Assembly: GCA_965650505.1 (NCBI GenBank)
Contig: CBFGOZ010000001.1
Coordinates: 1-42,903, forward strand
Length of the DNA stretch: 42,903 nucleotides
Direction: 5' to 3'
Origin: an uncultured Arenimonas sp.
Lineage (GTDB): Bacteria > Pseudomonadota > Gammaproteobacteria > Xanthomonadales > Xanthomonadaceae
The notes under the pieces were generated by a model. It was not told the origin of the DNA. It ran no database searches and worked only from the letters and a program-made list of their open reading frames with translations. The translations under genes and the position numbers were made by a program. Shown here piece by piece: positions 8,670 to 34,136 of this stretch (position 1 is the first letter of the stretch; every line of letters begins with the position of its first letter).

Positions 8670-10265
8670 ATGCCTGCCACCCTTGCACACCCGGGCGTCT
8701 ACATCGAGGAAATCCCCAGCACGGCCCGCGCCATCACCGGGGTGGCGACCTCCACGACCGCCTTCATCGGCCGCGCGATGCACGGACCGGTCGACGATCC
8801 GCAAACGCTCGGCAGCTACGCCGACTTCGAGCGGGTGTTCGGCGGGCTCTGGAAGGAATCGCGGCTCGGGTTCGCCGTCCGCGACTTCTTCAACAACGGC
8901 GGCGGCAAGGCCATCGTCGTCCGCCTCTACAACACCAATACCGCGCCCGGCGCGCCGCCGGCCACCGCGGCGATCGACGCCAACGGGCTGCAGCTGCGCG
9001 CCGCGTCGCCCGGGTCCTGGGGCAATTCGCTGCGGGCGCGGGTGGAAAGTGTCGCCGCCAGCATCGCCACGGAAGCCGCCGCCCAGCTCGGCGTCGCCAC
9101 CACCGACTTGTTCAACCTGCGCGTGCGCGACACCCGCACCGGCGTGGAGGAGGAGTTCCGGAACGTCACCGTGGTCGAAAGCGCGCGTCGCATCGACCGC
9201 CTGCTCGAAGCGCAGTCCAGGCTCGTCCGCGCACCGACGCCGCTGGTCGCCCCCACCGCGCACGCCGCGCCGGCACCCGGCACCAGCGTCTGGGTCGGGA
9301 ATACCGCCAACGATTCCGTCGGCACGCCGGCGGGCGACGGCCTTGCGCTGGTGGCAAACAGTTTCACCGGCCCCGGCCTTGCCGCGGCGAAGAAGGGCCT
9401 GTACGCGCTCGAGCGCGTGGACCTGTTCAACCTGCTGTGCATTCCGCCCTACCTGGCTACGGCGGGCATCGCCGACCAGGACGTCGATGCGGCCCTGGTG
9501 GCGGATGCCGCGAAATACTGCGAGGACCGCCGCGCCTTCCTGGTCATCGACCCGCCCAGCAGCTGGACCGACGTCGCCACCGCCAAGGCCGGCATCACCG
9601 CCTTCAACACCCGCAGCCGCAACGCCGCGGTGTATTTCCCGCGCCTGCGCCAGCCCAATCCCCTGCGCGACGGCCTGATCGATACCTTCGCGCCCTGCGG
9701 CGCGATCGCCGGCGTCATCGCCCGCACCGACGCCTCGCGCGGCGTCTGGAAGGCGCCAGCCGGGCTGGAAGCGACGCTCAACGGCCTTTCGGGCCTCTCG
9801 GTGCCGCTGACCGACAGCGAGAACGGCGAGCTCAATCCGCTCGGCCTGAACTGCCTGCGCAACTTCCCGGCCGCGGGCAACATCGTCTGGGGCGCGCGCA
9901 CGCTGCGCGGCGACGACCGCCTGGCCAGCGAATGGAAGTACATCCCGATCCGCCGGCTCGCCCTGTTCATAGAGGAAACCCTGTTCCGCGGCACCCAGTG
10001 GGTGGTGTTCGAACCCAACGACGAGCCGCTGTGGGCGCAGATCCGCCTCAATGTCGGCGCCTTCATGCATTCGCTTTTCATCGACGGCGCCTTCCAGGGC
10101 GCGACGCCGCGCGAGGCCTACTTCGTCAAGTGCAGCCACGAGACCACCACCCAGACCGACATCGACAACGGCATCGTCAACGTCGAGGTCGGCTTCGCGC
10201 CGCTGAAGCCAGCGGAGTTCGTGGTCATCAAGATCCAGCAGATCGCGCTCCAGGCGCAGGTCTGA
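8670..10265 (+). CDS. Contractile tail sheath protein (Afp2/3/4-like)
   Basis: N-terminus PGVYIEEIPS...ITGVATSTTAFIG. C-terminus RGVWKAPAG, VWGARTL, WKYIPIRRL, WVVFEPNDEPLW and VGFAPLKPAEFVVI. AAGGAG RBS at 8657-8662. Confidence 0.95.
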   Translation: MPATLAHPGVYIEEIPSTARAITGVATSTTAFIGRAMHGPVDDPQTLGSYADFERVFGGLWKESRLGFAVRDFFNNGGGKAIVVRLYNTNTAPGAPPATAAIDANGLQLRAASPGSWGNSLRARVESVAASIATEAAAQLGVATTDLFNLRVRDTRTGVEEEFRNVTVVESARRIDRLLEAQSRLVRAPTPLVAPTAHAAPAPGTSVWVGNTANDSVGTPAGDGLALVANSFTGPGLAAAKKGLYALERVDLFNLLCIPPYLATAGIADQDVDAALVADAAKYCEDRRAFLVIDPPSSWTDVATAKAGITAFNTRSRNAAVYFPRLRQPNPLRDGLIDTFAPCGAIAGVIARTDASRGVWKAPAGLEATLNGLSGLSVPLTDSENGELNPLGLNCLRNFPAAGNIVWGARTLRGDDRLASEWKYIPIRRLALFIEETLFRGTQWVVFEPNDEPLWAQIRLNVGAFMHSLFIDGAFQGATPREAYFVKCSHETTTQTDIDNGIVNVEVGFAPLKPAEFVVIKIQQIALQAQV

Positions 10266-10287
10266 GCCCGGAATCCAGGAGGACACC

Positions 10288-10815
10288 ATGGCACAGTTCA
10301 GCGTCAACGCCCGTCGGCTCGACCCCTACAAGAACTTCAAGTTCCGGGTGAAGTGGGACGGCCGCTACGTCGCCGGCGTTTCCAAGGTCGGCGCACTCAA
10401 GCGCAGCACCGAGGTGGTCGAGCACCGCAACGGCGGTGACCCGTCCACGTCGCGCAAGTCGCCAGGGCGCAGCAAATACGAGGCGATCACGCTCGAACGC
10501 GGCGTCACCCACGACACCGAGTTCGAGAGGTGGGCCAACAAGGTCTGGAACTTCGGTTCGGGCCTGGGCAAGGAAACCTCGCTCAAGGACTTCCGCAAGG
10601 ACCTGATCATCGAGATGTACAACGAGGCCGGCCAGCTGGCGATCGCCTACAAGATCTACCGCTGCTGGGTTTCGGAATTCCAGGCCCTGCCCGACCTCGA
10701 CGCCAACGCCAACGCCGTCGCCATCCAGTCCATCAAGCTCGAGAATGAGGGCTGGGAGCGCGATTACGACGTGGCCGAGCCGGCCGAGATCGGGTTCACC
10801 GAGCCGGCGGTCTGA
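10288..10815 (+). CDS. Tail tube protein (T4 gp19-like, Afp1/5-like)
   Basis: DPYKNFKFRVKWDG, RKSPGRSKYEAITLERGVT and NAVAIQSIKLENEG are typical CIS tube motifs; it follows the sheath gene with an AGGAGG RBS. Confidence 0.93.
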   Translation: MAQFSVNARRLDPYKNFKFRVKWDGRYVAGVSKVGALKRSTEVVEHRNGGDPSTSRKSPGRSKYEAITLERGVTHDTEFERWANKVWNFGSGLGKETSLKDFRKDLIIEMYNEAGQLAIAYKIYRCWVSEFQALPDLDANANAVAIQSIKLENEGWERDYDVAEPAEIGFTEPAV

Positions 10816-33779: not shown

Positions 33780-33797
33780 CCCTTCCGGGAGACGACC

Positions 33798-34136
33798 ATG
33801 GCAAGCCGCAAGATCACCCGCAGCGCGAAGAAGACCCCGGCGACCAAGTCGAAAGCCGCGACGAAGGTCGCCGCGACCAAGCGCCCTTCGGCGAAGGAGG
33901 CGGCGGCCGCGGAGCGGCCGGGCAAAGTGCCGGCGCCGACGCCTGCGCCCAAACCGGCGCCGTCCCGGAAAGCGTCCGAGCACCCGCCCTCCACGCCGGC
34001 CGCCGACTATCTTCCCTCCGGGCTTGAGGCGCTGCTGCGCCGCCTGCGCCTTCGTGACCAGGCCGCGGCGAAAAAGCTCGAGCCCGGCATCAGCCATCTC
34101 GCCAAGGCCTACGGAAAGTTGCTGGGCAAGGGCTGA
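33798..34136 (+). CDS. Small basic Lys/Ala/Pro-rich protein (histone H1-like N-terminus)
   Basis: GGGAGA RBS; MASRKITRSAKKTPATKSKAATKVAATKRPSAK followed by an amphipathic helical C-terminus. Confidence 0.7.
   Translation: MASRKITRSAKKTPATKSKAATKVAATKRPSAKEAAAAERPGKVPAPTPAPKPAPSRKASEHPPSTPAADYLPSGLEALLRRLRLRDQAAAKKLEPGISHLAKAYGKLLGKG

What the first reader, a model, noticed from the sequence alone, without database searches (positions are those of the whole stretch)
8670..34136. Complete eCIS operon with two tandem nuclease-type DUF4157 cargos in a Xanthomonadales-like chromosome
Seen: 20 co-oriented genes encoding every structural class of a headless contractile tail (sheath, tube, cap, ATPase, initiator/LysM, hub, spike, PAAR-like tip, gp25, baseplates, putative fibre), with no capsid genes and no T6SS membrane complex. 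Known: this inventory defines eCIS such as Afp, PVC, MAC and Streptomyces CIS. Inference: the architecture (single sheath, single tube, split VgrG, twin baseplate-J, DUF6519 beta-helix, two DUF4157 cargos) differs from the canonical Afp/PVC layout and may be an uncharacterised subtype in this lineage.
Basis: partly seen in the sequence, partly recalled or inferred. Interest (0 to 1): 0.88.

Follow-up and report, generated by a model that had tools for sequence, protein, structure and literature searches.

The report
Swappable-cargo injection syringe in Arenimonas
A soil bacterium carries the full 20-gene set for a headless phage-tail syringe of an already catalogued class; it likely injects two DNA-cutting proteins, whose genes lie in a central block that differs wholesale from the one in its closest relative.

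Summary
In detail: 20 co-oriented genes (8670-34136) encode a headless contractile injection system in an Arenimonas chromosome, inserted between recQ and lpxR. The layout is not a new subtype. Twin baseplate-J, split spike, PAAR and no Afp14 define dbeCIS subtypes IIa/IIc (Chen 2019). The best full-length baseplate matches are loci labelled IIc, and the Mycobacterium JS623 IIc locus is gene-for-gene collinear, including two tandem DUF4157 genes. The DUF6519 fibre is the published eBAP5 class. Two things were not found in print. (1) Against Arenimonas terrae, at the same chromosomal site, flanking genes are 85-99% identical, but a 10.3 kb central block (cap, ATPase, cargos, tube initiator, LysM, small genes) is 41-73% identical, with near-saturated silent sites and different cargos: a block replacement. 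(2) Cargo 2 carries a Pfam-less domain (69 relatives, mostly DUF4157 proteins) with a predicted PD-(D/E)xK fold and an odd PD..GDxT..HxxKT motif. Cargo 1 ends in a likely HNH nuclease. Neither has an immunity gene beside it. Particle formation, release mode and target are untested; I found no experimentally characterised IIc system. Verdict: new member of a known kind, moderate interest.

The parts
8670..10265 (+). Sheath (531 aa)
   Evidence: PF04984 E 2e-14, PF17482 E 6e-9; best PDB matches 9ezm, 8bky, 8bl4 at E<1e-72, ahead of Pvc/Afp sheaths; best phage match 31%
10288..10815 (+). Inner tube (175 aa); left edge of the replaced block lies at its 3' end
   Evidence: PF06841 E 2e-45; 98.9% to A. 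terrae
10818..11513 (+). gp3: T4 gp26-like/Zn-ribbon protein, probably an assembly chaperone (inferred)
   Evidence: T4_baseplate E 3e-4, below cut-off; present in 77 of 79 related loci
11513..12265 (+). gp4: low-complexity protein of variable length with a conserved C-terminal motif (V-x-I-G-R-I-E ... S-L-D-x-Y-L); candidate tape-measure substitute (inferred)
   Evidence: motif recurs in ORFs between gp3 and cap in many loci, ORF lengths about 240-700
12262..13596 (+). Cap/terminator (Pvc16-like, 444 aa)
   Evidence: Pvc16_N E 7.5e-49
13593..15536 (+). AAA+ ATPase (Afp15/Pvc15-like), likely cargo loader
   Evidence: AAA E 7e-24, WHD E 4e-13; loading role from PMC11495950 abstract and PROCIS preprint passages
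15533..15802 (+). gp7: conserved 89-aa protein of no known family (plug or chaperone candidate, inferred)
   Evidence: no Pfam/PHROG hit; similar ORFs follow the ATPase in many loci
15799..18009 (+). Cargo 1 (736 aa): Cys-rich N-terminus, DUF4157, middle domain, acidic helical region, Lys-rich linker, likely C-terminal HNH nuclease (about 17590-18006)
   Evidence: eCIS_core E 3e-29; the two best PDB sequence hits are pyocin AP41 and colicin E7 HNH domains, weak (E 0.66, 1.2); Pfam HNH E 0.093; H-H-x-P...GG...N...H...H invariant in 9 of 9 aligned; fold prediction failed, pLDDT 38
18030..20075 (+). Cargo 2 (681 aa; alternative start 18003): low-complexity N-terminus, DUF4157, predicted PD-(D/E)xK-fold nuclease domain (18522-19022), long unknown C-terminal part
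   Evidence: eCIS_core E 2e-27; 69 phmmer hits; conserved E20, P61-D62, D75, H108, K111, T112; AF2 pLDDT 89; top structural matches 3fov, Hjc, ACE1/Cas4, NucS-type, Z 6.3-7.8
20089..20745 (+). Tube initiator (Afp7-like)
   Evidence: CIS_tube E 1.4e-6, over cut-off
20742..21098 (+). LysM/gp53-like baseplate protein; right edge of the replaced block lies at its 3' end
   Evidence: LysM E 0.019, below cut-off
21098..22225 (+). Hub (gp27-like half of a split VgrG; named by position)
   Evidence: YQBQ-like E 0.31 only; no PDB hit; 51% to the collinear gene of the JS623 IIc locus
22222..22770 (+). Spike (gp5 OB-fold half of split VgrG)
   Evidence: Phage_base_V E 6e-19
22770..23084 (+). PAAR-like tip
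   Evidence: PAAR_motif E 2e-4, below cut-off
23093..23455 (+). gp25 wedge protein
   Evidence: GPW_gp25 E 1e-17
23452..25974 (+). Baseplate-J 1 (Afp11-like, 840 aa)
   Evidence: TIGR02243 E 1e-86; full-length matches to IIc-labelled loci
25981..28785 (+). Baseplate-J 2 (934 aa)
   Evidence: TIGR02243 E 2e-58
28782..30986 (+). Tail_P2_I baseplate/fibre adaptor (734 aa)
   Evidence: Tail_P2_I E 1.4e-4, over cut-off
30996..33779 (+). Fibre: DUF6519 (eBAP5) anchor plus right-handed beta-helix, likely a glycan-binding tailspike
   Evidence: DUF6519 E 5e-41, Beta_helix E 3e-6; phrog_2234 tail spike E 1e-4; eBAP5 in PMC12923769
33798..34136 (+). Lys/Ala/Pro-rich 112-aa ORF of unknown role
   Evidence: 55% to the same-position ORF of A. 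terrae; a similar ORF follows the fibre in G029 (sequence printed)
10818..21098 (+). Central 10.3-kb block (gp3 to LysM, nine genes) that is replaced relative to A. terrae
   Evidence: DNA identity per 250 nt 0.87-0.97 left of it and 0.78-0.98 right of it, 0.38-0.88 in its alignable left half; fourfold-site identity 41-55% inside vs 72-87% outside, chance 37-39%

Best explanation
This is a complete subtype-IIc contractile injection system gene cluster of an Arenimonas species, predicted to build a headless syringe that likely loads two DUF4157 proteins with predicted nuclease domains and injects them into neighbouring cells. SHOWN: gene inventory, subtype, insertion between recQ and lpxR, divergence pattern against A. 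terrae, conserved cargo motifs. INFERRED from known CIS biology: tube grows from initiator/hub/spike inside a twin-J baseplate, sheath polymerises around it, the Pvc16-like cap closes it; the AAA+ ATPase reads the cargos' N-terminal loading sequences and threads them into the tube; the DUF6519 beta-helix fibre binds a surface glycan; contraction delivers an HNH DNase (cargo 1) and a PD-(D/E)xK-fold nuclease whose catalytic lysine likely comes from a downstream helix (cargo 2). Particles are likely released on cell death, which would explain why no immunity gene is needed. The payload changes by recombination: the central block carrying ATPase, cap, small genes and cargos has been replaced in one of two sister species (probably A. 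terrae) by crossovers in the conserved tube and hub genes, while sheath, baseplate and fibre stayed. Odds: IIc CIS about 0.97; block replacement about 0.9; both cargos nucleases about 0.7; released extracellular particle about 0.6.
For: Family hits. Subtype: the two plasmid loci labelled IIc in Table S6 of PMC6899500 match baseplate-J 1 over 100% of its length (39.5%, 38.0%), while those labelled IIa or IId match 25-33% of it; JS623 locus collinear in all of its first 19 genes by annotation, 17 of 19 by tblastn. Same order sheath-tube-gp3-cap-ATPase-DUF4157 in most of 79 GTDB loci from many phyla. recQ is directly followed by lpxR in 8 of 12 relatives' loci and none of the 12 has a sheath. Block replacement; A. 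terrae also has a different gene order (cargo-initiator-LysM-cargo) and unrelated cargo C-termini. Cargo 2 domain; it sits at the extreme C-terminus in 25 of 60 aligned hits, as polymorphic toxin domains do. DUF4157 cargo in the tube and N-terminal loading shown for AlgoCIS (preprint passages). No gene fits between the cargos and their neighbours in 3 of 3 Arenimonas loci; lack of immunity genes is common for eCIS toxins (PMC8213781 passages). No segment above Kyte-Doolittle 1.73 in any of the 20 proteins.
Against: No particle, expression or activity data. RNA-library contigs match the operon but DNA carry-over was not excluded. No holin, endolysin or regulator among the 20 genes, so the release route is unexplained. 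The IIa relative acts membrane-bound and showed no cargo density in the tube (PMC11566945 passages). HNH support is weak per test and its fold prediction failed. Cargo 2 has T, not K, at the canonical position; Foldseek gave no hit at E<=0.001 and best Z is under 8. Trees do not show the direction of the swap: the cap tree keeps window and A. terrae as sisters (99/98) and the initiator tree is unresolved.
Confidence: 0.62

Rival explanations
1. Same machine, different mode: it stays in the producer, either membrane-docked and firing on contact (as the archaeal IIa system) or acting inside the cell to cause regulated death (as recalled for Streptomyces IId).
For: The closest solved sheaths are 9ezm (the Halogeometricum paper cites it) and 8bky/8bl4; the IIa system is membrane-bound. 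No lysis genes in the operon. Nucleases without immunity would suit programmed self-killing.
Against: No membrane-anchor-like protein among the 20; IcmF_C not found in the own, 77% complete genome; a full beta-helix fibre of a class proposed to bind targets is kept; the IIa toxins come with immunity genes, these do not.
Confidence: 0.25
2. The central block is not a functional module. Recombination with a diverged donor simply had to start and end in the most conserved genes (tube, hub), so ATPase, cap and initiator were dragged along with the selected cargos.
For: Tube (92%) and hub (85%) are the most conserved genes between the window and the distant G029 locus. Only one close pair shows the pattern; four other same-genus loci of a second variant show no comparable sharp block in blastn. 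The block includes LysM, a baseplate part.
Against: Loading sequences are system-specific and probably read by the cognate ATPase (preprint passages; PMC11495950 abstract), which would favour moving ATPase and cargo together.
Confidence: 0.5
3. Defective prophage tail or R-type tailocin that kills by puncture, with DUF4157 genes as passengers.
For: Sheath, tube and baseplate are phage-tail homologues.
Against: Pvc16 cap, AAA ATPase, CIS_tube and eCIS_core are eCIS markers; best phage sheath is 31% identical against 44-70% for cellular loci of many phyla; no capsid or terminase family found in 3 of 3 genomes; no integrase, lysis or head gene in the operon.
Confidence: 0.02
4. The cargos are delivered but are not nucleases (nucleic-acid binders or dead domains), or the real toxin of cargo 2 is its unknown C-terminal half.
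For: Non-canonical T at the lysine position; 351 C-terminal residues of cargo 2 have no meaningful family hit; failed fold for cargo 1.
Against: D75, H108, T112 are invariant in 61 of 61 aligned and K111 in 58, E20 in 54, a pattern expected of an active site; the fold matches are nucleases.
Confidence: 0.2

Closest known systems
dbeCIS lineage II, subtype IIc (Chen et al. 2019, PMC6899500; section 10 read whole, passages, supplement file 1 part 17); example A0409, Mycobacterium sp. JS623 pMYCSM01
   Same: Single sheath and tube, three small subtype genes, cap, ATPase, two tandem DUF4157 genes, initiator, LysM, split spike, PAAR-like, gp25, twin baseplate-J, adaptor, DUF6519-related fibre, in the same order
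   Different: Host, cargo C-termini, fibre tip (beta-helix here, kelch in JS623), extra 112-aa last ORF. Catalogued from sequence only.
eBAP5 (DUF6519) eCIS with Tail_P2_I baseplate (PMC12923769; passages read)
   Same: DUF6519 fibre downstream of a Tail_P2_I gene; pectin-lyase-like tips are described for the class
   Different: The class is reported as mainly Actinobacteriota; here a Xanthomonadales host
AlgoCIS of Algoriphagus (PROCIS preprint 10.64898/2026.05.27.728243; passages read)
   Same: Two DUF4157 cargos with N-terminal loading region and variable C-terminus; AAA+ loader
   Different: Lineage I architecture with an Afp14-type tape measure (lineage recalled); different cargo domains and fibre
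Halogeometricum borinquense CIS, clade IIa (PMC11566945; passages read)
   Same: Lineage II, DUF4157 effectors, closely matching sheath
   Different: Membrane-bound, has a putative membrane anchor and toxin-immunity pairs; baseplate matches only 31% of the length
Afp/PVC (subtype Ia)
   Same: Headless tail, cap, ATPase-dependent loading
   Different: Several sheaths/tubes, one-piece VgrG, single Afp11, Afp14, adenovirus-like fibre; sheath match limited to the C-terminal part
PD-(D/E)xK nucleases: Hjc resolvases, 3fov, Cas4-like ACE1, R2 retrotransposon endonuclease
   Same: Predicted core fold, helix Glu, PD motif, acidic residue at the end of the next strand
   Different: GDxT instead of (D/E)xK, with an invariant HxxKT helix; no Pfam over cut-off (best AHJR-like E 0.17). 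A displaced lysine is recalled for R2-type endonucleases, not tested here.

Membership tests
eCIS superfamily (Chen 2019) | Core backbone Afp1/5, 2/3/4, 7, 8, 9, 11, 15, 16 in one cluster | tested here: met
   the gp27 half of Afp8 is assigned by position only
eCIS superfamily (Chen 2019) | No phage head/packaging genes, no T6SS core | tested here: met
   none among the 20 genes; four marker families not found genome-wide; own genome 77% complete, IcmF not searched in relatives
eCIS in the strict sense | Particles assembled and released to act outside the producer | not testable with these tools
   no particle data; expression not shown
dbeCIS subtype IIc | Two afp11 copies, split afp8, afp10 present, afp14 absent | tested here: met
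   definition; genes; PAAR hit is below cut-off
dbeCIS subtype IIc | Upstream Afp11 groups with IIc rather than IIa | tested here: met
   by similarity, not by the published tree: both IIc-labelled plasmid loci match full length at 38-40%; three IIa-labelled ones (MBA4, WB1, pHBOR03) cover 30-33% at 24-27%
dbeCIS subtype IIa | Afp11 similarity to IIa loci | tested here: not met
eBAP5 eCIS | DUF6519 fibre next to a Tail_P2_I gene | tested here: met
   definition
PD-(D/E)xK nucleases (cargo 2) | Restriction-endonuclease-like fold | tested here: met
   pLDDT 89 model; the top VIA-align rows are this fold, Z 6.3-7.8, rmsd 3.0-4.0, 87-109 aligned; Foldseek E>=0.012
PD-(D/E)xK nucleases (cargo 2) | Canonical (D/E)xK motif | tested here: not met
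   T in 50, A in 9 of 61 at that column; conserved K lies 36 residues on; its position in the site was not measured
HNH nucleases (cargo 1) | H-N-H metal-finger motif and fold | tested here: inconclusive
   motif invariant in 9 of 9; weak hits all to HNH; fold prediction failed
Toxin-immunity polymorphic systems | Immunity gene directly downstream of the toxin | tested here: not met
   cargo 1 stop to cargo 2 start 20 nt, cargo 2 stop to initiator 13 nt; likewise in G015 and G029

The most novel reading that the evidence does not exclude
Subtype-IIc syringes re-arm by exchanging a whole loading module (ATPase, cap, length protein, initiator and cargos) on an unchanged sheath-baseplate-fibre chassis, because the ATPase reads only its own cargos' loading sequences; and cargo 2 founds an undescribed eCIS-specific nuclease family with a relocated catalytic lysine, delivered without immunity, perhaps into eukaryotic microbes of the rhizosphere.
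Probability: 0.25. Interest if true: 0.7.

Novelty: new member of a known kind. Interest (0 to 1): 0.42.

Why it matters
IIc is a widespread CIS subtype for which my searches found no experimental study, and lineage-II relatives have turned out not to behave as classical released particles. A named species, A. terrae, carries the same chassis, so mode of action, particle length control without Afp14, and survival without immunity genes become testable. The two sister loci are a natural experiment on whether loader and cargo must match. The cargo 2 domain adds a candidate nuclease family to the many DUF4157 proteins with unannotated tails. The operon layout itself is ordinary.

Tried and rejected
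New subtype: rejected. Two tandem DUF4157 genes as a special trait: rejected; 25 of 79 loci show two or more hits even within truncated 10-kb flanks (counted). ORF 15882-17939 as cargo 1: a shadow frame, GC3 0.46, no hit. A. terrae as proven recipient of the foreign block: suggested by lower GC3 (0.76-0.85 vs 0.84-0.93 in its own flanks), odd gene order and fourfold identity to G029, but not shown by trees (14 rows per tree, top hits only). Fold of the cargo 1 tail: failed, not searched. Protein atlas: no result. Expression: RNA-library contigs X17, X18 cover parts of the operon, DNA not excluded. A. terrae-type block in four metagenomes: not covered; higher depth on the flanks than on the central block in X4 could reflect co-occurring strains but other organisms are summed in. 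Shared origin of gp4 and gp7 motifs: no BLAST support. Lys-rich linker as a nuclear signal: 6 of 164 cargo ORFs vs 0 of 644 structural ORFs have 7 Lys in 12, but rows are related and it fits nucleic-acid binding equally; hint only. Sigma-70 promoter or terminator in 8200-8800: none. PADLOC: no hit for the cargos. PDB sequence search with the cargo 2 profile and with the fibre: nothing meaningful. Earlier scan notes: none on this locus. No complex prediction was run.
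Full report
Observation. The window is contig C1 of a 2.3-Mb, 77% complete, 71% GC genome. Twenty + strand genes run from 8670 to 34136 between recQ and lpxR. Pfam, NCBIfam and PHROGs identify sheath, tube, Pvc16-type cap, AAA ATPase, two eCIS_core (DUF4157) proteins, CIS_tube initiator, gp5-type spike, gp25, two baseplate-J proteins, a Tail_P2_I protein and a DUF6519/beta-helix fibre. PAAR and LysM hits are below cut-off and the hub is named by position. No head, terminase, lysis or regulator family is hit in the operon. 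Phage_capsid, Terminase_6N and Hcp were not found in 3 of 3 genomes and IcmF_C not in the own genome. No second copy of the CIS genes was found on other contigs of the own genome.

Host and spread. The nearest relative, G015, is named Arenimonas terrae by its proteins; recQ is 94% identical. A sheath match occurs in 8 of 36 sampled same-genus genomes, the fibre in 9 of 82, DUF4157 in 11 of 82; only G015 and G029 carry this variant full length. In 8 of 12 relatives' recQ loci, lpxR follows directly and none of the 12 has a sheath, so the cluster was inserted at this site. Near-identical DNA occurs in rhizosphere, soil, root and aquatic metagenomes (8 runs with half or more of the words, one possibly the source). 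Close sheaths occur in many phyla, archaea included. Of 79 such loci, limited to 10 kb of flank, 77 have tube and gp3, 65 cap and ATPase, 49 DUF4157, mostly in the same order.

Subtype. Chen et al. 2019 (PMC6899500; section 10 read whole) state that IIa and IIc have two afp11 copies and a split afp8, that afp10 is missing only in IIb and that afp14 is absent from lineage II. Their Table S6 labels plasmid loci by subtype. Baseplate-J 1 matches the two IIc-labelled plasmids over 100% of its length at 39.5% and 38.0%, but IIa- and IId-labelled ones over only 25-33% (40 records matched). The JS623 IIc locus has the same gene series, including two tandem DUF4157 genes. IIc loci are listed for Lysobacter antibioticus. 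DUF6519 is described as fibre anchor eBAP5, 658 genes, tied to Tail_P2_I baseplates (PMC12923769 passages). The architecture is therefore in print. Searches for 'subtype IIc' or 'clade IIc' with contractile injection returned 0 papers, and Arenimonas with contractile injection one T6SS review (listing only); the library lacks most subscription papers.

Cargos. Cargo 1 has a Cys-rich N-terminus, DUF4157, a middle domain shared with a Nitrotoga protein that ends differently, a helical region, a Lys-rich linker and a tail with the motif HHxP...GG...N...H...H. The two best of three PDB hits at E<=10 are HNH bacteriocin domains aligned on that motif, Pfam HNH scores E 0.093, and the motif is invariant in 9 of 9; folding failed. 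It is likely an HNH DNase. Cargo 2 has, right after DUF4157, a 167-residue domain with 69 hits among 1.84 billion representatives. I aligned the query and 60 of the 68 other hits (8 dropped for partial matches): D75, H108, T112 invariant, P61 60/61, K111 58/61, E20 54/61, D/E62 61/61; 25 of 60 carry it at the very C-terminus; 39 of 68 have an HExxH motif; 32 of 36 hits I chose to scan have eCIS_core and none has a Pfam hit on this domain. The model is confident (pLDDT 89) and matches restriction-endonuclease-like folds (Hjc, 3fov, ACE1; best Z 7.8, rmsd 3.4, 96 aligned), modest scores but a consistent family. The canonical lysine is replaced by T; I infer K111 takes its place. I did not find the family described (passages), but toxin-domain libraries beyond Pfam were not available. 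No immunity gene fits beside any cargo in the three Arenimonas loci; this is common for eCIS toxins. Cargo tails are highly variable: 169 tails fall in 103 clusters, 75 single, with some duplicate loci in the set.

Central block. A. terrae has the cluster at the same site. Ten structural genes are 87-99% identical with 72-87% identity at fourfold sites, like recQ and lpxR (94%/76%, 85%/73%). Six comparable central genes are 41-73% identical with 41-55% at fourfold sites, near the 37-39% expected by chance; gp7 gave no tblastn hit and the cargos align only up to DUF4157. The edges are sharp, at the end of the tube gene and the start of the hub gene, and gene order inside differs. Faster protein evolution cannot explain saturated silent sites, so the block was replaced in at least one lineage. 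A. terrae looks like the recipient by GC3 and order, but the cap tree still joins the two (99/98, with long branches) and the initiator tree is unresolved. Whether the block moves as a functional unit or merely between the best recombination substrates is open; I put it at even odds.

Mechanism. Assembly and contraction follow established CIS biology. Loading via an N-terminal region and the AAA+ ATPase is shown for AlgoCIS and PVC (preprint passages; PMC11495950 abstract) and inferred here. The beta-helix fibre suggests a glycan receptor. Release is the weakest step: no lysis genes, and the IIa system is membrane-bound (PMC11566945 passages); but no membrane-anchor-like segment is present. 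Expression is not shown. The target, bacterial or eukaryotic, is unknown.

Verdict. Real, complete and well supported as a subtype-IIc CIS; a new member of a known kind. The block replacement and the unannotated nuclease-fold family are modest new points, and a named species makes an untested subtype accessible. Interest 0.42.

Noticed in passing
L238-L244 (G022:C111, G027:C4, G083:C10, G102:C125): A second, more distant twin-baseplate/DUF6519 CIS variant in other same-genus genomes, with a longer sheath and DUF4157 genes placed after the fibre, up to five per genome.
   Followed up: partly
L061 (Nitrospira sp. CG24A), 12120-16448: Its cap (67%) and gp3 (56%) are as close to the window's as the Arenimonas ones are, and its cap groups with G029 (95/95), hinting at exchange across phyla.
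   Followed up: partly
L015:15166-17025 and G029 cargo A (L017-L018): Both relatives' first cargos also show PD...(E/S)IK-type motifs right after DUF4157 followed by Lys-rich stretches, unrelated in sequence to the window's cargos (seen).
   Followed up: no
window 35321-35518 and 35561-35636: Two 85-nt REP-like repeats (79% alike) next to tRNA-Lys(TTT); A. terrae has several kb of extra DNA between lpxR and this tRNA.
   Followed up: no
window 8321-8669: 349-nt leader well conserved in A. terrae but not in G029; no sigma-70 consensus; a candidate regulatory region.
   Followed up: partly
window 11513-12265 and homologues: gp4 homologues vary about 240-700 residues around a fixed C-terminal motif, as a length-setting protein might (lengths are stop-to-stop).
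   Followed up: partly
L069, L080, L107: Related loci are split into two divergent halves (baseplate half on the opposite strand upstream of the sheath), with the break at the initiator gene.
   Followed up: no
window 1-8320 and 34249-42903: Flanks are ordinary: hrpA, dps, recQ; lpxR, queC, tol-pal cluster.
   Followed up: yes
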